NCBI GenBank assembly: GCA_013334575.1
Contig: JAAXXG010000005.1
Coordinates: forward strand, 3,080-67,079
DNA length: 64,000 nucleotides
Source of the DNA: Candidatus Moraniibacteriota bacterium
GTDB lineage: Bacteria; Patescibacteriota; Minisyncoccia; Moranbacterales; UBA1568
Direction: 5' to 3'
Shown: piece by piece, positions 21,707 through 55,995 of the stretch
Numbering within the stretch: position 1 is the first letter of the stretch
How the letters are laid out: the number at the start of each line of letters is the position of its first letter
Made by a program: the position numbers and the translations under genes
Notes under the pieces: generated by a model
Seen by the model: only the letters and a program-made list of their open reading frames with translations
Told to the model about the DNA's origin: nothing
Databases searched by the model: none

Positions 21707-22366
21707 TCAGGACTTCTGCAGGAAGACTATCTCCATGCTCTTCCCATCGAGGTCCTTCTTCTTGAAATTGAGTTTCGGAAGATCCTCGGCGACCTTGCAT
21801 CCGGTCTCACGACAGAAAGTCTCGCGGCCTTCGGCGGAGATAGACGCTCCGGAAAGCGCGTAGTGCATCGGAATGACCAGTTTTGGCTCTATGTCACGGA
21901 TGATGCCGTCTATCTTCTTCGGATCGAGCGCCTCGCCGCCGCCGACCGGAACGAAAAGGATATCGACATCGCCGATGCGCTCCACCGTCTTCTCGTCGAG
22001 CGGGTGTCCGATCGCGCCCAAATAGGCGAGACGGACATCTTCGGAATCGAAGACGAAAACCGTGTTCTGCCCGCGATCGACACCGCCGTTCTGATCCCTG
22101 AAGGACGGATAACCGAGTATTCCCACTCCCTTGGCGGCAAATTCGCCGGGCGTGTGGATAATGACCGGATCATCCTTCAATCCGGACAGAGCGTCGTCTG
22201 CGGGATCGAGATGCGACAGAAGAACGATATCGGCATGACCGAACGGCGACCGGATACTGGTCGACTTTCCCGGAAGGTCCGTAAAGATAACCACGTCCTC
22301 GGTGGCGCGTCCGGCGGGCTTGGTCGTGATCTTGAAGCAGTAGTCGCCGTAGTACTGGATGTTCAT
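21707..22366 (-). CDS. MBL-fold metallo-hydrolase
   Basis: HADIVLLSHLDPADD is a HxHxD-like motif, with beta-lactamase-fold layout. Confidence 0.75.
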   Translation of the reverse strand: MNIQYYGDYCFKITTKPAGRATEDVVIFTDLPGKSTSIRSPFGHADIVLLSHLDPADDALSGLKDDPVIIHTPGEFAAKGVGILGYPSFRDQNGGVDRGQNTVFVFDSEDVRLAYLGAIGHPLDEKTVERIGDVDILFVPVGGGEALDPKKIDGIIRDIEPKLVIPMHYALSGASISAEGRETFCRETGCKVAEDLPKLNFKKKDLDGKSMEIVFLQKS

Positions 22367-28621: not shown

Positions 28622-29629
28622 TTACTGAAGCTCGAGCGGGATAGACGTTATCCCGTAGTCGGAAAGCTTCGACTGCACGTCGGTCACGAACACACCGACC
28701 ACTCCGAGCAGCCCTTGAACCTTTGAAAGCGTCTTGATCGTCATTACCGGATCATCCTGTATCGAATCACCGACGTCGTCCTTCAGTTTCGCCATGTACG
28801 TCGCAAGCTTGAGCGCCTTAACGTGCGTGTCGAGCATCTGCTGAGGAACTTCGACTTCGTTGATCTGCTCGAGCATACGCTGCCCGCTCTCCACATAGGT
28901 ATCCAACGAAGAGACATTCCCCATCGAGACGGCGGTGATCGCCTCGTTCGCAAACGACTCCGATACGCTCTGCAATTCGCTCTGGTTCGTGATCTGAACC
29001 GGAGAGTTGCTCGCAAAGATGAAGGAGACGGTCGTAAGATACTCCGTTATATCCTCCTTGATGCGCTCTTTTCGCTTCGATTCCGAGAGCCCGGCATAGG
29101 TCTCATCCTTGACTTTGATAGCGCTCAAATCGACATCCGGGAGCGAGACTTCTTCGGCTCCGCCGGATATTTCCTGCGCGATGGATGTCAGATCCTCTAT
29201 CGACACCTCGGTGGTACCGTCAGATGTCACGTTTGACTCCGACGCCTTCACCAAGGCAGCCAATTTTTCGCTTACCGTGTCCGTCAAATTGTCACCACCC
29301 ATTCCGCCCGACGAAGTCTCATCCCTTTTTTCAGCCTTTGTTTCCTGTACGATTTTATCGCCAGGCGCAGCTTTCAACGGATCGTACCCTCCCCGGATCT
29401 CCACGCCGTCAGAATATCCGTCACTATCGGTATCCCGATTCGCCGGATCCGTTCCATATAGCCGCTCTTCCGCGCCAGTTAGGCCGTCCTGATCGGAATC
29501 ATCCACGATATTCGCGGCACGCATCTCCTCCGCCGATGTCACGAAAATGCCGTACCCGATAGCGACAAGACACGCTAACAGAAGAAAATCGGCACGAAGA
29601 CCACCCACCAGGTTCTTCATTCGATTCAT
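28622..29629 (-). CDS. secreted protein with thrombospondin type-3-like Asp-rich Ca-binding repeats
   Basis: N-terminal TM/signal, then DDSDQDGLTGAEERLYGTDPANRDTDSDGYSDGVE (DxDxDG repeats). Confidence 0.5.
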   Translation of the reverse strand: MNRMKNLVGGLRADFLLLACLVAIGYGIFVTSAEEMRAANIVDDSDQDGLTGAEERLYGTDPANRDTDSDGYSDGVEIRGGYDPLKAAPGDKIVQETKAEKRDETSSGGMGGDNLTDTVSEKLAALVKASESNVTSDGTTEVSIEDLTSIAQEISGGAEEVSLPDVDLSAIKVKDETYAGLSESKRKERIKEDITEYLTTVSFIFASNSPVQITNQSELQSVSESFANEAITAVSMGNVSSLDTYVESGQRMLEQINEVEVPQQMLDTHVKALKLATYMAKLKDDVGDSIQDDPVMTIKTLSKVQGLLGVVGVFVTDVQSKLSDYGITSIPLELQ

Positions 29630-29796
29630 ATCAATAGGTAATTTTGTTTATCGATACTGTACCACTTTTTTTTCTCTTTTACCAGTTCATGGTTCATTAT
29701 GATCTTTTTACCACTTTATGTAATAAAATATATATTTTGTCAATAATCAACAAATCCACCAGAAACACTTTTCTATAATATGCTTTTCTTTACGAT

Positions 29797-30271
29797 TGTT
29801 CCACGTGGAACATTTCCTCATATCATGTGAAAATCTATATAAATCATTTTCTATAAATATGTTTCAATCTATTCTTACGATATCTGCAAATTTATTATTG
29901 TTCCACGTGGAACATTTTTTCATATCCCACGATCACAGTTATTCATTCTTAAATAATATATAACTCTACATGTTCCACGTGGAACATTCAGCAATTTAAT
30001 TCTTAAACGAGGAAGCGTATATTGATGATAGTGCATATTGTTCCACGTGGAACATTTACCATATTTATGATTAAGAAATTTGTTCCACGTGGAACAAATA
30101 TTTACTAAAAAGATTCATTTAAAATATCAAATGTTCCACGTGGAACAAATTCAAAATTGGTTGATATTCCTTACATTGTTCCACGTGGAACAATGACATT
30201 TATTGATAGTAGAAAATAATATCCGACCAAATTTTCATTACTGAATCTTATTAAATGTTCCACGTGGAACA
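29797..30271. repeat. array of eight perfect parS-type palindromes TGTTCCACGTGGAACA in an AT-rich intergenic region
   Basis: Copies at 29797-29812, 29899-29914, 29971-29986, 30039-30054, 30081-30096, 30132-30147, 30177-30192 and 30256-30271. The repeat is 1 nt from the B. subtilis parS TGTTCCACGTGAAACA. Flanking bases are also conserved (..ACATTT..TCATATC). Confidence 0.85.
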
Positions 30272-30315
30272 ATATATATAATTGACATATATAGTGTTCT
30301 GTGTTTTTATGACTG

Positions 30316-30344
30316 TTGACGGGAGCCTCTTCTCCGGTTAAAAT
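30316..30344 (+). promoter_or_regulatory. sigma70-like promoter (TTGACG-17-TAAAAT) for the tRNA-Ala/tRNA-Arg operon
   Basis: The -10 element ends 9 nt before tRNA-Ala +1. Confidence 0.5.
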
Positions 30345-30353
30345 TGCCTCATT

Positions 30354-30426
30354 GGGCCTGTAGCTTAGTTGGTAGAGCGCCTCCATGGCATGGAGGAGGT
30401 CAGGAGTTCGAGTCTCCTCAGGTCCA
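30354..30426 (+). tRNA. tRNA-Ala (GGC)
   Basis: G3:U70 identity pair, anticodon loop atGGCat, T-loop TTCGAGT. Confidence 0.8.
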
Positions 30427-30477
30427 CACCCATACCGTATTCATGCCATTTTGACGCTCTATACGGCCATCGGTTCC

Positions 30478-30549
30478 GCCTCGATAGCTCAATGGATAGA
30501 GCGAATCCGTCCTAAGGATGAGATCTAGGTTCGATTCCTAGTCGGGGCA
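30478..30549 (+). tRNA. tRNA-Arg (CCT)
   Basis: Acceptor GCCTCGA/TCGGGGC, anticodon loop gtCCTaa, T-loop TTCGATT. Confidence 0.7.
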
Positions 30550-30641
30550 CAAAAAACCTTTCTCAGGCGAATACGACCCATCTTTGACAAAATACCGAGA
30601 TTGCGCGACAATGCTCCGATTAGACACCGAAAGGAAACTCC

Positions 30642-30974
30642 ATGTCGCGAAGAATCCTGCAAATCAACGAGCTCCTTCGGGAGCGGCTCGGCGAAATCAT
30701 CCTTCGGGAGGTCAGTTTCAAGCCGGGAGTACTCGCCACTTTAACGAAGGTCTCCGTCTCACGGGATCTCCGCCATGCATCGGTACATATCAGCCCGTTC
30801 CCGGAGACGGAAAGCGAATACGTGATGCGAACGCTCGAGCACGAACGAAAGCGCATCCAAAAAATCCTGCACGGGGGACTTCATATGAAACCGCTGCCGG
30901 CCATCGCGTTCCTTACGGATACGACGGAGCGGGAAGCCGACATCGTGGAACGGATCCTCCGGGACCTGGACTGA
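30642..30974 (+). CDS. rbfA: ribosome-binding factor A
   Basis: MSRRILQINELLRERLGEIILREV...ATLTKVSVSRDLRHASVHIS. Confidence 0.85.
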   Translation: MSRRILQINELLRERLGEIILREVSFKPGVLATLTKVSVSRDLRHASVHISPFPETESEYVMRTLEHERKRIQKILHGGLHMKPLPAIAFLTDTTEREADIVERILRDLD

Positions 30975-32896: not shown

Positions 32897-35689
32897 ATGG
32901 CTCTCTGCCACAGCCTCCGCTGCGAACATTCCGTGACGCCGCTTGGCGTCGACGAACCGAATCCGCTTCTCGAATGGCACATCGAAAGCGAACAAGCCGG
33001 CTTTCTTCAGACGGCCTATCGGATTCAGGCAGCCCTTTCGAAGGAAGTCCTCGAACAGGAGCGTGACCTCACATGGGATACGGGAGAGGTCGAATCGTGG
33101 CACACGTTCGATATCCCGTACGAGGGTCTTCCCATCGCAAGCGCGCAACGTTATTTCTGGCGGGTCGCATCCCGGAATCAGGACGGCATATGGACGCCAT
33201 GGAGTAAGACTAGCTGGTGGGAAACCGGCCTTCTCAGGACCGAGGACTGGCACGCAAAGTTCATCGAACCTGGAAAGGAGGACGGCGTCGGCGCCGAGCG
33301 TCCGGCACCATATTTCCGCGCCGTGTTCGATATCGACCAGCCGATCAAGTCCGCAAGGGCATATGTGTCCTGTCACGGCATATATGAACTTTCCCTCAAC
33401 GGAGCACCCGTCGGAGACGCGGTATTCGCTCCGGGGTATACGAATTACCCCGATAGACTCCAATACCAGACCTACGATGTGACGGAATTTGTCCGCTCCG
33501 GAGGCAATGCCGTCGGCATGATTGTCGGCGACGGATGGTACAGAGGACGACTCGGTATCACCTCGCAGCGGGATACGTATGGCACCGTTCTGGGCGCGCT
33601 ACTACACCTCGACATCCTTCATACTGACGGGACTCATACGGTCGTGGCAACCGGGGAGGACTGGAAGTACGCGTTCGGCCCCATCAGAAATTCCGATTTG
33701 AAGGACGGCGAGACCTACGATGCCAGACTGGAATTCGACGGGTGGGATATTTTCGGATTCGATGATTCCGACTGGAAACCGGCTCAAGTCGCCGAACACA
33801 GGCTCGGCACGCTCGTGGCCTCGTCCGCCCCTCCGGTCAGGCGGAAGGAGCGCTTTCGACCGATCAACATCACGAAGTGTTCCCACGACACGTTTCTCCT
33901 CGATTTCGGTCAGAATATCGCCGGACGCGTCCGATTCCGGATTACAGGACCCCGTGGAACACGCGTCCGGATCCGACACGGAGAGACGCTCGACCAGAAC
34001 GGGCGACTCTCGCTCAAACATCTGCAGCCGACCGCGCCAGGCCTCCCGAAACTCCGCCAGGAAGACCTTTACATACTGAAAGGGGATGATTCGGAGGAAT
34101 ATGAGCCGCGATTCACATACCATGGATTCCGCTACGCGGAAGTCTCTGGATGGCCGTCGGACATTCTCGTTGCCGATTCATTCGAAGCGATCGCGATACG
34201 TACCGACTTTGAACGAACGGGCTATTTCCGCTGTTCGGATCCGGACCTGAACCGCCTGTATCGAAACATCCTCTGGAGCATGCGGGGAAATTCCGTCGAT
34301 ATCCCGACGGACTGCCCGACCCGTGAACGATCAGGATGGACCGCGGACGCGCATTTGTTCGCTGCGACTGCCACCTACGCTTACGATACCAGGACTTTCT
34401 ACGAAAAGTGGCTCTCTGACCTTTACTCGGACCAGCATCCGGACGGCCTCGTTCCGGATACGATTCCGGATCCGGGAGGCGCCCGCGCGAACGCCGTTTC
34501 CAGAATAACGGACGGATCATCAGGCTGGGGAGATGCGGCCGTCATCATACCATGGATACTCTATTCGCAAACCGGAGACCACCGAATCCTGGAGCGACAA
34601 TACCGCAGCATGAAGAACTGGGTCGACTACGGGAAAAAAAGGTTGTCGAGAACGGGATGGTCTCACCGGATGAACCCCGTCGAGCGCCTGAACGCATCCC
34701 GAATGCATCGGGAGCCGTATATCCTGGACAGCGGCTATCATTGGGGAGAATGGCTCCGTCCTGGCGAACGAAAGTCAGTCCCTCTCACGATGGGAAAGAA
34801 CATCCTGCTCGATGACCGCAGCGAAAGCGTAGCTGCGACCGCCTATCTGGCACATTCGGCCGACCTCCTCTCGCGCATCGCGAACATACTAGATGTTCCC
34901 GACGACGCCAGACGCTATTCGGAACTGTTCGATCACATTCGAAAGGCGTATTCCGAAGAGTTCATAAGAGATGGCCGCATGAACCCGGACGATCAGTCCG
35001 TGTACGTCAGGACGCTCGCCTTCTCCCTGGCACCCGACGCACTCCGGCCGATGCTTGCGAAGCGGCTCAATGAACTCGTCGAACACGGCGGCTACCATCC
35101 GGATACGGGCTTCCTTTCAACCGCATACCTTCTCGAGGCGCTCAACGATGCCGGATTCGCGGATACCGCCTACCGGCTCCTGAAGACGGACACGTACCCC
35201 TCCTGGCTCCATCAGATCAGAAACGGCGCAACGACCATCTGGGAAAGCTGGGATGGGATAGACAGCAAAGGGCAGGCGCATTTTTCGCACAATCACACGG
35301 CGCTGGGATCCATCGGACGATGGTTTTTCGAATCCATCGCGGGAATAAAGGTCGACGCCACGAAAGATGATCCCACCGTCTTCCGCATCGCTCCCGCTCT
35401 TGGCGGCGGATTGACATATGCCGCCGCGACGTATCATTCGCCATTCGGGATCGTCCGAACACGCTGGGACCTCATGGAAGACCGTTCGGCACGACTCCTT
35501 GTTTCCATCCCGCCAAATACGAGAGCGGAAATCAGCTTTCCAACACAAGATCGAGACACCATAACCGAATCCGGTTTTCCTGTACACGGCCGAAAGGACA
35601 TCCTCCCTATCCGTCGAGAAGAAACGCGATCCGACTACCTTGTCGTAAGCGGCACATATGTCTTCGAGTGGCCGCATGAAAGGAAGTAA
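32897..35689 (+). CDS. alpha-L-rhamnosidase (GH78)
   Basis: 930 aa. The N-terminus matches the rhamnosidase N-domain (..LLEWHIES..QTAYRIQAA..), followed by a six-hairpin catalytic domain and C-terminal domain. Confidence 0.8.
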   Translation: MALCHSLRCEHSVTPLGVDEPNPLLEWHIESEQAGFLQTAYRIQAALSKEVLEQERDLTWDTGEVESWHTFDIPYEGLPIASAQRYFWRVASRNQDGIWTPWSKTSWWETGLLRTEDWHAKFIEPGKEDGVGAERPAPYFRAVFDIDQPIKSARAYVSCHGIYELSLNGAPVGDAVFAPGYTNYPDRLQYQTYDVTEFVRSGGNAVGMIVGDGWYRGRLGITSQRDTYGTVLGALLHLDILHTDGTHTVVATGEDWKYAFGPIRNSDLKDGETYDARLEFDGWDIFGFDDSDWKPAQVAEHRLGTLVASSAPPVRRKERFRPINITKCSHDTFLLDFGQNIAGRVRFRITGPRGTRVRIRHGETLDQNGRLSLKHLQPTAPGLPKLRQEDLYILKGDDSEEYEPRFTYHGFRYAEVSGWPSDILVADSFEAIAIRTDFERTGYFRCSDPDLNRLYRNILWSMRGNSVDIPTDCPTRERSGWTADAHLFAATATYAYDTRTFYEKWLSDLYSDQHPDGLVPDTIPDPGGARANAVSRITDGSSGWGDAAVIIPWILYSQTGDHRILERQYRSMKNWVDYGKKRLSRTGWSHRMNPVERLNASRMHREPYILDSGYHWGEWLRPGERKSVPLTMGKNILLDDRSESVAATAYLAHSADLLSRIANILDVPDDARRYSELFDHIRKAYSEEFIRDGRMNPDDQSVYVRTLAFSLAPDALRPMLAKRLNELVEHGGYHPDTGFLSTAYLLEALNDAGFADTAYRLLKTDTYPSWLHQIRNGATTIWESWDGIDSKGQAHFSHNHTALGSIGRWFFESIAGIKVDATKDDPTVFRIAPALGGGLTYAAATYHSPFGIVRTRWDLMEDRSARLLVSIPPNTRAEISFPTQDRDTITESGFPVHGRKDILPIRREETRSDYLVVSGTYVFEWPHERK

Positions 35690-39632: not shown

Positions 39633-39699
39633 GGCCCCATCGCGGATCGGAAACGGTGGATAAACGGTGATATTCCCGAGTTATCCACAGGATTTCCTG

Positions 39700-43292: not shown

Positions 43293-44261
43293 ATGACAAT
43301 CTTCCATAAAACCGTTTCCCGACTCCTCATCGCGTTCCTTGTCGTTTTTATGCTCGCCTCGGTCCGTCCGGCGTTCGCTGCCGACGGATTCACGTACGAG
43401 CCGCTTGAACCGATTCCAGGAGCGGAAGACGCCGCGAAGCTTCCCGACTACATCACCGGTATCTACAAATTCGCCCTGTGGGCCGTCGGTATCGCTGCCA
43501 TGTTCATGATCACGATCGGCGGAGGCATGTATCTTACGAGCGCCGGAAACACTTCCGCGATGGGAAACGCGAAAGGCGTCATTACCGACGCGATCATCGG
43601 GCTCGTACTCGCGCTCTTCGCGTGGTTTCTGCTCAATCTCATCAATCCAAGCATCCTCAGCGGCGACCTTTCCGTCTTCAGCACGGTCGGAGTCGCTTCA
43701 TCCGGCAGTCAGGCAGCAGGCGGAACGACGTCAGGAGCAACGGGCACTTCAGGTCAGGGCGCCGTCAGTACCGTCAATCAAGCCTCGACTCTTTCCGCAG
43801 CCGCGGCCGCAAAGGCGCTTCTTGCGAGCTCCAACGTGACCATCAGTTCTTCCGGCGACTGTAAATCCGCTTCCGGCGCCGTATCACCTTCTTCGAATCT
43901 CACGGAGATGTCCTCCGGAAAGGCGATGACCACCTGTCATGACGGTTGTAAATCCGGCAGCCTCTGCACCGGATCGAGCTATGCGAACGCCACGCTTCTC
44001 AATGCTCTTTTCACCGCTTCAAACTCCGCATCCCTTACGATAAACAGCCTTGCGGGAGGCGATCATTCTGCGGGCTCCGCCCATTATTCCGGGAACGCCG
44101 CCGACATCGATCTTCCGAATGCCGCCCTTACCTCCTATCTCCAGAAGAGCAGCTCGACGACCTGCACCTATAAGGGTGGCGCACAGTATCGCGTGAACGG
44201 CGTCTACTGGTGGTACGAAGACTCGTCGCATATCCACGTACAGATGACCCCTCTCTGCTAA
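43293..44261 (+). CDS. TrbC/VirB2-like membrane protein fused to a C-terminal LAS/M15-type zinc peptidase-like domain
   Basis: Signal peptide plus two TM helices and a Gly/Ser/Thr-rich linker. C-terminus SAHYSGNAAD (H-x6-D) and HIH (HxH) match LAS metallopeptidase zinc ligands. Confidence 0.5.
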   Translation: MTIFHKTVSRLLIAFLVVFMLASVRPAFAADGFTYEPLEPIPGAEDAAKLPDYITGIYKFALWAVGIAAMFMITIGGGMYLTSAGNTSAMGNAKGVITDAIIGLVLALFAWFLLNLINPSILSGDLSVFSTVGVASSGSQAAGGTTSGATGTSGQGAVSTVNQASTLSAAAAAKALLASSNVTISSSGDCKSASGAVSPSSNLTEMSSGKAMTTCHDGCKSGSLCTGSSYANATLLNALFTASNSASLTINSLAGGDHSAGSAHYSGNAADIDLPNAALTSYLQKSSSTTCTYKGGAQYRVNGVYWWYEDSSHIHVQMTPLC

Positions 44262-53147: not shown

Positions 53148-54578
53148 ATGAACCACCAGGAACTCTGGAAATCCGTCCTCGGGCAGATCGAGCTTTCCAT
53201 TTCGAAGGCTAATTTCGTCACCTGGTTCCAGAACACATCGATCCTCTCTATCGAAGACGGATCCGTCGTTATCAGCGTCCCGAACGGATTCGCCAAGGAA
53301 TGGCTTGAAAATAAATATAATCACACCATCATACAGTCGCTCCGCTCGTTTGAAGGAGACGCGGTACGCTCTATACGCTGCGTCATATCCGGCCCACAGA
53401 CCATAAAGAAATCGATCGACGCCATAACACAGCCCGTACAACAGATCGACATCGCTTCGAAATCCTCCCCGCTTCCACCTCGCATACAACCGTTCAATCC
53501 CACCGCTCCCGTCCCTACACCAAAACTGGCGACGGCGATGTTCCATGAATCGAATCTCAATCCGCGATACACTTTCGACGACTACGTCGTCGCCGAAAAC
53601 AACGAACTCGCCCATGCGGCCTGTGTCGCCGTTTCCAGGAATCTCGGTCAACTTTACAATCCGCTCTTCATCTACGGCGGCGTAGGACTCGGGAAAACCC
53701 ACCTCCTCCAGGCACTCGGAAACGAAGTGAAGCGGCAGCACCCTGAAAAGACGATCAAATACATCACTTCCGAGCGTTTCACGAGCGAACTCGTCGATTC
53801 CATCAAGAACCAGAAGACCGACAAGTTCAAGGAATACTACCAGCAGATGGACCTCCTCATCATCGACGACGTCCAGTTTCTTTCCGGCCGGGAAAAGACT
53901 CAGAACGAATTTTTTCACATCTTCAACGCCCTCTACCAGATCAACAAACAGATCGTGATATCAAGCGATCGCCCCCCGAAATCGATTCCTACCCTCGAAG
54001 ACCGTCTCCGATCCCGATTCGAAGGAGGAATGATCACCGATATTAGCCAGCCGAACGAAGAAACCAGACTCGCTATCCTTAAGAAGAAAGTGATCGAAAA
54101 AGGCGTTTCCATAGACGAGGAATCCCTCAGGTTCATCGCGGAAAACATCACCCAGAACATCCGGGAAATCGAAGGGGCGCTTAATCGCGTCATCGCCTAC
54201 TCGGAATTCTACAAGACACCTCCGTCGATATCACTCGTTGAAAAGGTGCTCTCCCAGCTCATTATTCAGAATAAGAAGACCATTAGCACCGAGGATATCG
54301 TTTCAGCTACCGAGAAGCTCTTTTCGGTCACCAAGGACGATCTCCTGAAAAAAGGACGGAAGAAAGGCATCGCACATGCGAGGCAGGTTGCGATGTACCT
54401 CATGCGAAGCGAACTCAGCATGCCGTTCTCCTCGATTGGCGACTATTTCGGTGGACGAGATCATACGACCGCTCTCCATGCATTCGAAAAGATATCCGCC
54501 GACATCGAAAAGAATCTCCGTCTCAAGGGTGATATTTCGACTCTAAAAAATGAGCTGTACCATCAAAATGGTGGATAA
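53148..54578 (+). CDS. dnaA: chromosomal replication initiator DnaA
   Basis: N-terminus MNHQELWKSVLGQIELSIS..., Walker A GGVGLGKTHLL, and C-terminal DNA-binding domain. Confidence 0.95.
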   Translation: MNHQELWKSVLGQIELSISKANFVTWFQNTSILSIEDGSVVISVPNGFAKEWLENKYNHTIIQSLRSFEGDAVRSIRCVISGPQTIKKSIDAITQPVQQIDIASKSSPLPPRIQPFNPTAPVPTPKLATAMFHESNLNPRYTFDDYVVAENNELAHAACVAVSRNLGQLYNPLFIYGGVGLGKTHLLQALGNEVKRQHPEKTIKYITSERFTSELVDSIKNQKTDKFKEYYQQMDLLIIDDVQFLSGREKTQNEFFHIFNALYQINKQIVISSDRPPKSIPTLEDRLRSRFEGGMITDISQPNEETRLAILKKKVIEKGVSIDEESLRFIAENITQNIREIEGALNRVIAYSEFYKTPPSISLVEKVLSQLIIQNKKTISTEDIVSATEKLFSVTKDDLLKKGRKKGIAHARQVAMYLMRSELSMPFSSIGDYFGGRDHTTALHAFEKISADIEKNLRLKGDISTLKNELYHQNGG

Positions 54579-54843
54579 GTTGTGGATTAACCAGGATTCG
54601 ACCTGGAGAGAGCGTGAATAAATAACCGACTTATCTACACAAATAAAATGGATCCTCTCCATATACACCATTCGGTGTATATCGAAAATAGAAACGTGCT
54701 CACGAACCGTACAGAAAAAACACTTCTACGGAGCCAAAAATCGAAAATCTCCACTTATCCACTCCGCTAATAATCATAATAAAATATATATATATAATAT
54801 ATATAATAATACCTATAACCCGTGGAGGGATCAGTATACGTCT
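54570..54843. promoter_or_regulatory. oriC candidate: DnaA boxes and AT-rich DUE in the dnaA-dnaN intergenic region
   Basis: DnaA-box-like 9-mers GGTGGATAA (54569-77), TGTGGATTA (54581-89), TTATCTACA (54630-38) and TTATCCACT (54755-63). AT-rich run with (TA)n at 54775-54815. Confidence 0.7.
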
Positions 54844-55995
54844 ATGAAAATCATCTGTACTCAAGAAAATCTCTCGAAAGCACTGTCTTACCTTGAACGG
54901 GCTACAGGAAAGCAATCGACTTTGCCTATTCTTTCCAACTTCCTTCTCAGAGTCGATCACGGTCGCCTGAAGCTATCTTCGACGAATCTTGAAATCGGGG
55001 TGACTGCGACGGTAAACGCGAAGATCGAGGGGGTGGGTGAGATCGCGGCGCCGGTGAAGATCATATCCAATTTCGTCGGGAATCTTCCTGGGGATGATGT
55101 CGTATCGATCGATGTGCAAGGGAATTCCGTTTCGGTCGCGTCGGGCGGCTATGATATGCGTGTCCGAGGGCTCGATTCGAAAGATTTCCCTATCATTCCG
55201 GAAAGGAAAGGTGAACATTCCTTTCTGCTGCCCGCTCAGGATCTGAAAACGGCCCTGCAGCGCATTCTCCCGTGTGCCTCATCGAATGAAAGTCGCCTGG
55301 AGTTGACCGGTATCAGTATGCAGTTTCTGAAGGGGGAGGTCCACCTTGCTGCGACGGACAGCTTCAGGCTTGCCGAACAGGTTCTCCGTCTTCCAGATGA
55401 TGTCGGATCGGAGGGGTATGAGGTGTTCCGGGATCAGAATCCGTCTCTTATTCTCCCTCATATCACCATGCAGGAGCTTTCCAGGATCATCTCTCCTGAG
55501 ACTGTTTCCGTGTTCGTGGCATTCGAGGAGAATCAGGTGTTTTTCGATATCGACGGGGTATCGATTGTTTCACGGGTTATTAATGGAAAATATCCCGATT
55601 ATAAGCAGATTCTTCCGAAAGAGTTCTCGTATGTCGCCAGACTTTCCCGGGATGAGTTTCTTCGGGCTGTCAGGATGGCGGGAGTATTTGCGTCTCAGAT
55701 GACCGGAGAGATGATGATCGTGGTCTCTCCGGAGAAGGGTGAAGTGCAGGTTTCCGCCAGGTCGTCCGAGATTGGTGAGAATCGTACGGTTATAAAGGCC
55801 GAGGTGTCCGGAGGGGATCCGGTTCAGATCGTCTTTAATCCCCGTTATGTGATTGATGGCTTGAACGCGGTCTCTTCCGAAGTGGTTGCGTTCCTCCTGA
55901 ATTCCTCGTCGACTCCGGCTGGGTTCAGGTCGGTTGGCTCTGACGGGATTGAAGATCCTTTCTTCCTTTATATCGCGATGCCTATCAGGAAATAG
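54844..55995 (+). CDS. dnaN: DNA polymerase III beta sliding clamp
   Basis: MKIICTQENLSKALSYLERATGK... and three-domain clamp length. Confidence 0.93.
   Translation: MKIICTQENLSKALSYLERATGKQSTLPILSNFLLRVDHGRLKLSSTNLEIGVTATVNAKIEGVGEIAAPVKIISNFVGNLPGDDVVSIDVQGNSVSVASGGYDMRVRGLDSKDFPIIPERKGEHSFLLPAQDLKTALQRILPCASSNESRLELTGISMQFLKGEVHLAATDSFRLAEQVLRLPDDVGSEGYEVFRDQNPSLILPHITMQELSRIISPETVSVFVAFEENQVFFDIDGVSIVSRVINGKYPDYKQILPKEFSYVARLSRDEFLRAVRMAGVFASQMTGEMMIVVSPEKGEVQVSARSSEIGENRTVIKAEVSGGDPVQIVFNPRYVIDGLNAVSSEVVAFLLNSSSTPAGFRSVGSDGIEDPFFLYIAMPIRK

What the first reader, a model, noticed from the sequence alone, without database searches (positions are those of the whole stretch)
29797..30271. 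Dense array of eight perfect parS-type palindromes in a 480-bp AT-rich intergenic island
The 16-mer TGTTCCACGTGGAACA occurs eight times between 29797 and 30271, on both strands by symmetry, at spacings of 42-102 bp. The surrounding ~700-bp intergenic stretch is ~25% GC in a ~60% GC genome. The 16-mer is one substitution from the B. subtilis parS consensus TGTTCCACGTGAAACA and is the perfectly symmetric version. Chromosomal parS sites are normally a handful of dispersed, often intragenic, copies near oriC. Eight clustered intergenic copies plus conserved flanks (ACATTT / TCATATC) resemble a plasmid-style centromere or iteron block. The array sits ~24 kb from the dnaA-dnaN origin, immediately upstream of the tRNA-Ala/Arg promoter, and no parA or parB gene is in this window. 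It could be a concentrated ParB loading/nucleation platform, a relic of an integrated replicon partition site, or the binding array of an unrelated HTH regulator.
Basis: partly seen in the sequence, partly recalled or inferred. Interest (0 to 1): 0.8.

Follow-up and report, generated by a model that had tools for sequence, protein, structure and literature searches.

The report
Dense chromosomal parS centromere array
Eight perfect copies of the standard bacterial centromere sequence (parS) sit in one 475-bp gene-free stretch about 24 kb from the replication origin of an uncultured Moranbacteria (CPR) genome; it is an unusually dense but recognisable chromosome-segregation site, not a plasmid relic or a new kind of element.

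Summary
TGTTCCACGTGGAACA occurs exactly eight times, all perfect, at 29797-30271, against 0 expected by chance. The copies lie in a 724-bp spacer of 29% G+C between a secreted-protein gene and a tRNA-Ala/tRNA-Arg-rbfA operon.

The 16-mer is the published chromosomal parS of Pseudomonas putida and P. aeruginosa, and almost that of Myxococcus xanthus. M. xanthus already has 22-24 sites in 3.1 kb, about 30 kb from its origin.

The window comes from a Candidatus Moranbacteria MAG. The same spacer in five relatives (GyrA 82-90% identical) holds from at least 4 to 9 parS-type sites. More distant relatives have 3-8 perfect sites upstream of tRNA-Arg-rbfA. Only the 16-mers are conserved, and their variation falls on the known degenerate parS position.

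The predicted oriC is the dnaA-dnaN spacer, 24.3 kb away. Nothing supports an origin, iterons, an integrated replicon or a local operator.

The best reading is a high-density ParB loading platform. The main gap is that no ParB or ParA gene was found in the window or in about 750 kb of related DNA, and the rest of the genome could not be searched.

This is a new member of a known kind, of moderate interest. Related lineages thread 3-13 parS sites in-frame through one O-antigen-ligase gene.

The parts
29797..29812 (.). parS site 1 (TGTTCCACGTGGAACA)
   Evidence: Exact match. Shares 36 nt of context at 89% with site 2.
29899..29914 (.). parS site 2
   Evidence: Exact match.
29971..29986 (.). parS site 3
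   Evidence: Exact match.
30039..30054 (.). parS site 4
   Evidence: Exact match.
30081..30096 (.). parS site 5
   Evidence: Exact match.
30132..30147 (.). parS site 6
   Evidence: Exact match.
30177..30192 (.). parS site 7
   Evidence: Exact match.
30256..30271 (.). parS site 8
   Evidence: Exact match.
29630..30353 (.). AT-rich spacer between divergent transcription units; it carries the whole array
   Evidence: 29.3% G+C overall and 22.2% between the sites. Rfam matches above the gathering score in the scanned stretch 29400-30700 are only the two flanking tRNA genes, so none lies inside the spacer. No tandem repeat. Cannot be aligned with relatives except at the 16-mers.
30316..30344 (+). 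Promoter-like site (TTGACG-17-TAAAAT) for the tRNA-Ala/tRNA-Arg-rbfA unit, downstream of the last parS
   Evidence: Consensus scan, 10 of 12 positions matched. This is a consensus match only.
30354..30550 (+). tRNA-Ala(ggc) and tRNA-Arg(cct), transcribed away from the array
   Evidence: ARAGORN and Rfam. tRNA-Arg(cct)-rbfA also follows the array in L104, L172 and L176.
30642..30974 (+). rbfA, the first protein-coding gene to the right
   Evidence: Pfam RBFA, E = 5.9e-17.
28622..29629 (-). TSP3-repeat secreted protein gene, transcribed away from the array; left boundary of the spacer
   Evidence: Pfam TSP3_bac. Hydrophobic N-terminal segment, read by eye from the translation, suggesting a signal peptide. 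Borders the array in the same way in L221, L222, L231 and L232.
54570..54763 (.). Predicted oriC core (four DnaA-box-like 9-mers in the dnaA-dnaN spacer), 24.3 kb from the array
   Evidence: DnaA-box search, AT-rich island 54541-54940, G+C-skew sign change at 54-55 kb, and dnaA and dnaN identified by Pfam.

Best explanation
The array is the chromosomal centromere (parS cluster) of a Candidatus Moranbacteria genome. It consists of eight independent, full-strength binding sites for a canonical ParB dimer, packed into a non-transcribed, AT-rich spacer 24 kb from oriC.

Inferred mechanism, taken from what is established for ParABS systems:
1. Each 16-mer nucleates a CTP-bound ParB dimer.
2. The dimer closes into a sliding clamp and escapes onto flanking DNA.
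3. Eight adjacent loading sites multiply the loading flux, so a dense ParB partition complex forms over the origin-proximal region.
4. That complex then serves origin segregation through ParA, SMC loading, or both.

The smallest spacer between sites is 26 bp, so all eight sites can be occupied at once. The irregular spacing (4.0 to 9.7 helical turns) argues for independent sites rather than a phased cooperative structure.

Shown: the identity of the motif, its strict confinement to the array, its origin-proximal position, its conservation in relatives, and its linkage to parAB in other phyla.

Inferred: ParB binding, clamp loading, and the downstream partners.
For: 1. The 16-mer is the experimentally used chromosomal parS of P. 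putida and P. aeruginosa, and is nearly that of M. xanthus.

In 50 of them soj and in 50 spo0J lie inside the 8-kb locus.

3. Position: the array is 24.3 kb from the dnaA-dnaN spacer. That spacer holds four DnaA-box-like sites and the G+C-skew sign change. No DnaA box and no skew change occur at the array.

4. Conservation in close relatives: the same TSP3 | tRNA spacer in relatives with 82-90% GyrA identity holds 9 sites (L221), 6 (L231), 9 (L232) and at least 4 (L222, locus cut).

5. Conservation in distant relatives: genomes of 28-40% G+C have 8 (L176), 4 (L172) and at least 3 (L104) perfect sites upstream of tRNA-Arg(cct)-rbfA-DHH.

6. The spacers do not align; only the 16-mers are conserved.

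7. Among 70 sites from 10 Patescibacteria loci, 16 of 24 half-site changes hit position 5, the N of TGTTNCACGTGNAACA. Variants include the textbook TGTTTCACGTGAAACA.

8. The half-site is not dispersed in the window. In the scanned stretch 29400-30700 only the two flanking tRNA genes reach an Rfam gathering score, there is no tandem period, and the island matches no plasmid or phage record.
Against: No ParB or ParA gene was found in the 64-kb window, in about 5 kb beyond its left end in a near-identical MAG, or in about 750 kb (with overlaps) of Patescibacteria DNA fetched around arrays. None of the roughly 14 array loci in this lineage has parAB within 4-10 kb, unlike about 40% of loci from other phyla.

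Whether the genome encodes ParB at all was not testable here. I found no paper describing ParABS in CPR bacteria.

About 45 metagenome relatives of the neighbouring DHH gene show no site within reach, so the position is not universal in the phylum. No binding data exist.
Confidence: 0.8

Rival explanations
1. The palindromes are read by a protein other than a canonical ParB. Candidates are a lineage-specific HTH protein or a ParB derivative without the CTPase domain. The array would then act as an operator or nucleoid-organising site rather than a ParABS centromere.
For: No canonical ParB or ParA was seen in any Patescibacteria DNA examined. The only ParB-like protein found is L136 8238-9233(-), which has a Cys-rich N-terminus, a Pfam HTH_ParB match (35.6 bits) and, by eye, a second similar segment, but no ParBc domain. 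TrmB-family HTH genes recur near gyrA in relatives.
Against: The sequence is identical to validated parS, and its variation follows the parS consensus. That is hard to explain without the conserved ParB HTH. The L136 protein has no homologue in the window and no parS within 12 kb of it. An operator role does not fit eight sites spread over 475 bp, nor arrays lying inside a coding sequence in sister lineages.
Confidence: 0.1
2. The array is a selfish or neutral palindromic repeat (REP/MITE-like) that expanded locally by duplication and has no segregation role.
For: There are signs of local duplication. Window sites 1-2 share 36 nt. L172 is two copies of a two-site module. L104 has a roughly 60-bp tandem unit. 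L015 has three repeats of a three-site module.
Against: The motif is not dispersed: only one half-site lies outside the array in 64 kb, which is the chance level. The array keeps its place and its motif, but not its spacers, across genomes of 28-58% G+C. The motif equals a functional protein-binding site known from other phyla.
Confidence: 0.05
3. The array is a relic of the partition site of an integrated plasmid or prophage.
For: Dense centromere repeats are typical of plasmids. 19 IMG/VR contigs carry close pairs of the same 16-mer, and one has parAB beside them.
Against: The flanks are tRNA, rbfA, ftsH, tilS and gyrA, with no integrase, rep or par genes. The synteny with the array is shared by relatives. 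The AT-rich composition matches the genome's other spacers. There is no match to 72,556 plasmid or 50,697 phage records.
Confidence: 0.03
4. The island is a replication origin, or an iteron block of a second origin.
For: It is an AT-rich spacer with repeated protein-binding sites, and the half-site contains TCCAC, as a DnaA box does.
Against: There is no DnaA box with up to 1 mismatch in the island, whereas four cluster in the dnaA-dnaN spacer. The G+C skew stays negative across the array and flips at 54-55 kb. There is no constant repeat period.
Confidence: 0.02

Closest known systems
Myxococcus xanthus chromosomal parS cluster (22-24 sites, consensus TGTTCCACGTGGAACG, in a 3.1-kb stretch)
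   Same: Practically the same 16-mer. Many sites packed in one short stretch. Located a few tens of kb (about 30 kb) from ori rather than at it. ParB binding was shown there by EMSA (PMC3899335, PMC3778016).
   Different: The M. xanthus cluster lies directly upstream of parAB, and its density is about one site per 140 bp. Here the density is one per 66 bp, all eight sites are perfect, the host DNA is an AT-rich spacer, and no parAB lies within 29.8 kb to the left or 33.7 kb to the right, the limits of the window.
Pseudomonas putida / P. aeruginosa chromosomal parS
   Same: The identical sequence TGTTCCACGTGGAACA is used as the high-affinity ParB site near oriC (PMC7022226).
   Different: Only 3-4 origin-proximal sites, spread over kilobases, plus heptamer half-sites genome-wide. 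In this window half-sites are at the chance level.
Bacillus subtilis parS (TGTTNCACGTGAAACA)
   Same: The same family of 16-bp palindromes; the window's site differs at one base from the spo0J-internal site (read from the sequence, with my own knowledge of that site). Intragenic placement also occurs in relatives of the window organism.
   Different: From my own knowledge, not checked here: B. subtilis has roughly eight to ten dispersed single sites, mostly within about the origin-proximal fifth of the chromosome, not one array.
Plasmid centromeres such as F sopC (12 tandem 43-bp units, each with a 16-bp inverted repeat)
   Same: Many palindromic ParB-family binding sites in a few hundred bp; works as a multi-site nucleation platform.
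   Different: sopC is a true tandem repeat with a fixed period, lies next to sopAB, and has an unrelated sequence (my own knowledge). Here there is no period, the spacers are unrelated, no par genes are adjacent, and the motif is the chromosomal parS.

Membership tests
Chromosomal parS (centromere of a type Ia ParABS system) | 16-bp palindrome fitting tGTTNCACGTGAAACa | tested here: met
   8 of 8 sites are TGTTCCACGTGGAACA, the published parS of P. putida and P. aeruginosa.
Chromosomal parS (centromere of a type Ia ParABS system) | Origin-proximal location | tested here: met
   24.3 kb from the dnaA-dnaN spacer, which holds the DnaA-box cluster and the G+C-skew switch.
Chromosomal parS (centromere of a type Ia ParABS system) | Sites conserved in related genomes while the surrounding DNA diverges | tested here: met
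   Arrays lie at the same spacer in L221, L222, L231 and L232, and upstream of tRNA-Arg-rbfA in L104, L172 and L176. Only the 16-mers align.
Chromosomal parS (centromere of a type Ia ParABS system) | Cognate ParB (ParBc CTPase domain plus HTH_ParB) encoded in the same genome | not testable with these tools
   Absent from the window and from all fetched Patescibacteria DNA. The rest of the genome could not be reached. The ParB profile search returned only the 120 best hits, those with a named organism being Firmicutes and one Acidobacteria.
Chromosomal parS (centromere of a type Ia ParABS system) | Specific ParB binding and spreading at the sites | not testable with these tools
   Needs EMSA, BLI or ChIP. 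Indirect support only: 50 of 120 loci from other phyla with the same paired motif carry soj and spo0J alongside.
Plasmid-type centromere or iteron block | Tandem direct repeats with a constant unit length | tested here: not met
   Tandem Repeats Finder gave 0 rows at minimum score 30. Spacings range from 42 to 102 bp, and the spacers are unrelated.
Plasmid-type centromere or iteron block | Adjacent par or rep genes, or mobile-element context | tested here: not met
   The neighbours are a secreted TSP3 protein, tRNAs, rbfA, a DHH phosphoesterase and UDG. No plasmid or phage similarity.
oriC | Cluster of DnaA boxes at the G+C-skew switch | tested here: not met
   No DnaA box with up to 1 mismatch lies in 29630-30353. 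The cluster and the skew switch are at 54.6-54.8 kb.
Operator array of a neighbouring transcription factor | Regulator gene next to the sites, and sites tied to one promoter | tested here: not met
   No DNA-binding domain in the flanking genes. In sister lineages the same array lies within a Wzy_C coding sequence.

The most novel reading that the evidence does not exclude
Moranbacteria and related Parcubacteria concentrate their whole centromere into one ultra-dense parS array that is unlinked to any parAB operon. The array has moved during evolution between an intergenic island (this window) and the loop-coding parts of an O-antigen-ligase gene.

The most novel version of this reading is that the lineage has lost canonical ParA/ParB. 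The array would then be read by a non-canonical ParB-HTH protein without the CTPase clamp domain, like the L136 protein with a Cys-rich (possible zinc-binding) N-terminus and ParB-type HTH. That would be a ParB-CTP-independent way of marking the origin region.
Probability: 0.1. Interest if true: 0.75.

Novelty: new member of a known kind. Interest (0 to 1): 0.4.

Why it matters
As far as I could find, chromosome segregation in the Candidate Phyla Radiation has not been described. These organisms have genomes of about 1 Mb, very small cells and mostly no cultures.

The array gives a concrete, testable handle on that question. It defines a centromere in a Moranbacteria genome. Such dense arrays are also conserved in several related Moranbacteria/Parcubacteria lineages. 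The arrays are denser than any in my capped sample of other phyla, and none of them was found within 4-10 kb of a parAB operon.

For the ParB-CTP clamp field, it is a natural multi-site loader: eight perfect sites in 475 bp. It can be compared with single sites in loading and roadblock assays.

The intragenic arrays in the O-antigen-ligase gene show how compact genomes can fit cis-acting DNA sites into coding sequence.

The element itself is an ordinary kind of thing, a parS cluster, so the finding extends existing knowledge and does not overturn it.

Tried and rejected
1. ParB and ParA in the window. tblastn with Spo0J and Soj, and HMMs built from 46-47 ParB and ParA sequences taken from fetched loci, gave nothing.

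2. ParB in Moranbacteria through a profile search of the 5.8-billion-protein set. Only the best 120 hits are listed; those with a named organism were Firmicutes and one Acidobacteria, so the search could not reach CPR ParBs.

3. Extending past the window ends by exact-protein look-ups.
- The left side gave about 5 kb more, with no ParB.
- The right side gave only a 2-kb contig or no record.

4. Contexts of 10 kb either side of gyrA or of the Wzy_C gene in eight relatives showed no ParB.

5. Literature searches for ParABS in Patescibacteria, CPR, Parcubacteria and Saccharibacteria found nothing relevant. A 'chromosome partitioning' mention in a TM7x paper refers to the host's genes.

6. The origin reading was rejected on DnaA boxes and skew.

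7. The tandem-repeat or iteron reading was rejected.

8. The RNA-element reading was rejected. Only tRNAs pass the Rfam thresholds; the sub-threshold miRNA-hairpin matches are artefacts of neighbouring palindromes.

9. The terminator reading was rejected. The region lies between divergent transcription units, and only one site is followed by a T-run.

10. Plasmid or phage origin was rejected.

11. The L136 HTH_ParB protein was considered as an alternative reader. It has no ParBc domain, no parS nearby and no homologue in the window.

Full report
**Observation**

The 16-mer TGTTCCACGTGGAACA occurs exactly eight times in the 64-kb window, at 29797, 29899, 29971, 30039, 30081, 30132, 30177 and 30256. 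No further copy exists even when two mismatches are allowed, and 100 dinucleotide-preserving shuffles gave none.

The 8-bp half-site occurs only once outside the array (33954), which is the chance level of 0.88.

The sites lie in the 724-bp spacer 29630-30353. This spacer separates a gene for a secreted TSP3-repeat protein (28622-29629, minus strand) from tRNA-Ala(ggc), tRNA-Arg(cct), rbfA, a DHH-family phosphoesterase and a uracil-DNA glycosylase, all on the plus strand.

The spacer is 29.3% G+C, and 22.2% between the palindromes, against 56% for the window. AT-rich spacers are a general habit of this genome: seven other islands of 36-40% G+C were found. This one is the longest and the most AT-rich.

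The spacing is irregular, from 42 to 102 bp (4.0 to 9.7 helical turns). Tandem Repeats Finder reports nothing, and apart from sites 1-2 the spacers are unrelated.

**Whose genome**

GyrA of the window is 100% identical to a protein of a 'Candidatus Moranbacteria bacterium' MAG on a 75.9-kb contig. The next 100 or so best hits, where they carry an organism name, are almost all Moranbacteria or other Patescibacteria.

The window holds the classic origin region. rnpA, yidC and jag lie on one side and dnaA-dnaN on the other.

Four DnaA-box-like 9-mers cluster in the AT-rich dnaA-dnaN spacer (54570-54763), and the G+C skew changes sign at 54-55 kb. The array is therefore 24.3 kb from the predicted oriC and is not an origin itself. 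It has no DnaA box, and the skew does not change there.

**What the motif is**

The exact 16-mer is listed as the chromosomal parS of P. putida and, apart from two lower-case (less conserved) positions, of P. aeruginosa. M. xanthus uses TGTTCCACGTGGAACG and binds it in vitro (PMC7022226, PMC3899335, PMC3778016).

M. xanthus already provides a precedent for a dense chromosomal cluster: 22-24 sites in a 3.1-kb stretch, about 30 kb from ori.

In 50 of them soj, and in 50 spo0J, lie within the same 8-kb locus.

In that capped sample most loci have 2-3 sites per 600 bp, and the maximum is 7. The window's eight sites are therefore at the top of a continuous distribution, not outside it.

**Conservation**

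Relatives with 82-90% GyrA identity keep the same gene order: TSP3 gene, a 340-aa gene, ftsH, tilS and gyrA. In the TSP3 | tRNA-Ala spacer they carry the following:

| Locus | parS-type sites |
|---|---|
| L221 | 9 |
| L231 | 6 |
| L232 | 9 |
| L222 | at least 4 (locus cut) |

Most of the sites in L221, L231 and L232 are 1-2-mismatch variants, such as TGTTCCACGTGAAACA, TGTTTCACGTGGAACA and the textbook TGTTTCACGTGAAACA.

The spacers cannot be aligned; only the 16-mers line up.

More distant genomes of 28-40% G+C, with RbfA and DHH about 35-42% identical, show 8 (L176), 4 (L172) and at least 3 (L104) perfect sites directly upstream of tRNA-Arg(cct)-rbfA-DHH.

Over 70 sites from ten Patescibacteria loci, 16 of 24 half-site changes fall on position 5. 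That is the degenerate N of TGTTNCACGTGNAACA.

This is the pattern expected for sites kept by selection for a canonical ParB helix-turn-helix.

The position is not universal. About 45 metagenome contigs with a DHH homologue of 40-53% identity show no site within reach.

**A second home for the array**

In L013, L015, L134 and L064 the sites lie inside a homologous ORF. That ORF is an O-antigen-ligase-family gene (Wzy_C, 500-630 aa) sitting convergent to gyrA.

- Of the 120 best homologues, 96 contain three or more of the peptides that the palindrome encodes in its three frames: CSTWN 150 times, VPRGT 281 times and FHVE 195 times. None occurs in 240 control proteins. The query itself carries these motifs, so the fraction is biased upward, but the counts are real.
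- In L227, L229 and L230 the gene holds 12, 7 and 8 sites. Apart from one 2-mismatch match inside gyrA in L229, no other site lies within 10 kb on either side.
- In a 95-protein alignment most motifs fall in poorly occupied, hydrophilic insert regions. These lie between fully conserved hydrophobic blocks, that is, in loops between membrane helices.
- Use of all three frames shows that selection acts on the DNA, not on the peptide.

Dense, single arrays near gyrA-tilS-ftsH are thus a trait of several Moranbacteria/Parcubacteria lineages. The window's subclade carries its array in a spacer instead of in this gene.

**The gap**

No ParB or ParA was found in any of the following:
- the window (tblastn best E about 1; profile HMMs no hit at E<=10);
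- the 5 kb beyond its left end in a near-identical MAG;
- the roughly 750 kb (with overlaps) of Patescibacteria DNA fetched.

The only ParB-like protein is L136 8238-9233(-). It has a Cys-rich N-terminus, one Pfam HTH_ParB match and, by eye, a second similar segment, but no ParBc domain, and no parS lies nearby.

A ParB profile search lists only its 120 best hits; those with a named organism were Firmicutes and one Acidobacteria. Whether the genome encodes ParB therefore remains untested.

I found no paper on ParABS in CPR bacteria.

**Rivals**

- *Operator for a neighbour.* The neighbours are secreted proteins and tRNAs, and sister lineages carry the array in a coding sequence.
- *Integrated replicon.* The flanks are housekeeping genes, the synteny is shared with relatives, and there is no similarity to plasmid or phage records.
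- *Origin or iterons.* Rejected above.
- *RNA element or terminator.* The region lies between divergent transcription units, and only tRNAs pass the Rfam thresholds.
- *Selfish palindromic repeat.* The motif is not dispersed and stays in place across deep divergence. Local duplication clearly helps arrays grow, though.

**Mechanism (inferred)**

Each 16-mer should nucleate a ParB dimer. With CTP the dimer closes into a clamp and slides off, so eight adjacent sites raise the loading flux and build a dense partition complex over the origin-proximal region. That complex would serve ParA-driven segregation, SMC loading, or both.

The immediately adjacent units on both sides are transcribed away from the array: the TSP3 gene and the 339-aa gene to the left, and tRNA-Ala through the rhamnosidase gene to the right. 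This leaves the loading zone free of RNA polymerase traffic. That last point is my inference, not a tested result.

**Verdict**

The plasmid-like, relic and unrelated-regulator readings are not supported.

It is a new member of a known kind: a chromosomal parS cluster, closest to that of M. xanthus. It is notable for its density, its perfection, its lack of linkage to parAB, and its host, an uncultured CPR lineage.

Interest is moderate (0.4). The intragenic arrays in the Wzy_C gene are the more surprising by-product.

Noticed in passing
L227 10001-11653; L229 10001-11677; L230 10001-11617; L015 6840-7934 (minus strand); also L013 and L134: In many Moranbacteria and Parcubacteria an O-antigen-ligase-family gene (Wzy_C) convergent to gyrA carries 3-13 parS sites in-frame. 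The sites are read in all three frames as CSTWN, VPRGT and FHVE. Most of them fall in variable hydrophilic loops between conserved membrane blocks. 96 of the 120 best homologues have three or more such motifs, against none in 240 control proteins.
   Followed up: partly
L136 8238-9233 (minus strand): A 331-aa protein of a CPR relative with a Cys-rich N-terminus, one Pfam HTH_ParB match (PF17762, 35.6 bits) and, by eye, a second similar segment, but no ParBc/CTPase domain. It is the only ParB-like protein seen in about 750 kb of Patescibacteria DNA.
   Followed up: partly
window 54541-54940: Likely oriC. The AT-rich dnaA-dnaN spacer has four 1-mismatch DnaA boxes (54570-54763), and the G+C skew changes sign at 54-55 kb. 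jag is followed by polysaccharide-synthesis genes and two Wzy_C genes in place of the usual parAB.
   Followed up: partly
L221 162-739; L231 182-708; L232 252-728 compared with window 29797-30271: The window's array is perfect at 8 of 8 sites. The same array in relatives with 88-90% GyrA identity is mostly 1-2-mismatch parS variants (1 of 9, 0 of 6 and 2 of 9 perfect). Homogenisation of the sites in the window's genome (gene conversion, or a recent re-expansion of the array) is one possible explanation; this was not tested.
   Followed up: no
L172 3852-4038; L104 7144-7303; L015 7008-7815: Arrays are partly built from duplicated modules: two copies of a two-site unit in L172, a roughly 60-bp tandem unit in L104, and three copies of a three-site unit in L015. 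Two of the arrays (L104, L176) sit at contig ends, which may mean they break short-read assemblies.
   Followed up: no
L064 (CAZQLN010000002.1, labelled Bdellovibrionales): The contig end carries homologues of the window's TSP3 protein (50% identity) and of the parS-bearing Wzy_C gene, with 7 perfect sites. It looks like Patescibacteria DNA, so the contig may be mis-binned or chimeric.
   Followed up: no
window 39655-39689 and 22153-22161: Two DnaA boxes, one of them perfect, face each other between tRNA-Met and tRNA-Phe in a five-tRNA cluster. Another perfect box lies at 22153. Their significance is unknown.
   Followed up: no
window 32897-35689 and 43293-44261: A 930-aa GH78 alpha-L-rhamnosidase and a T4SS-pilin-domain protein (PF18895) are encoded in this small-genome CPR organism. 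At 56% G+C the genome is also well above the 28-53% G+C of the Patescibacteria relatives fetched here, except L222 at 58%.
   Followed up: no
L202-L220 (IMG/VR contigs): 19 contigs classed as viral carry two copies of the same 16-mer 20-50 bp apart. L205 has parA-parB immediately beside them. These may be phage-plasmids or misclassified chromosomal pieces.
   Followed up: no
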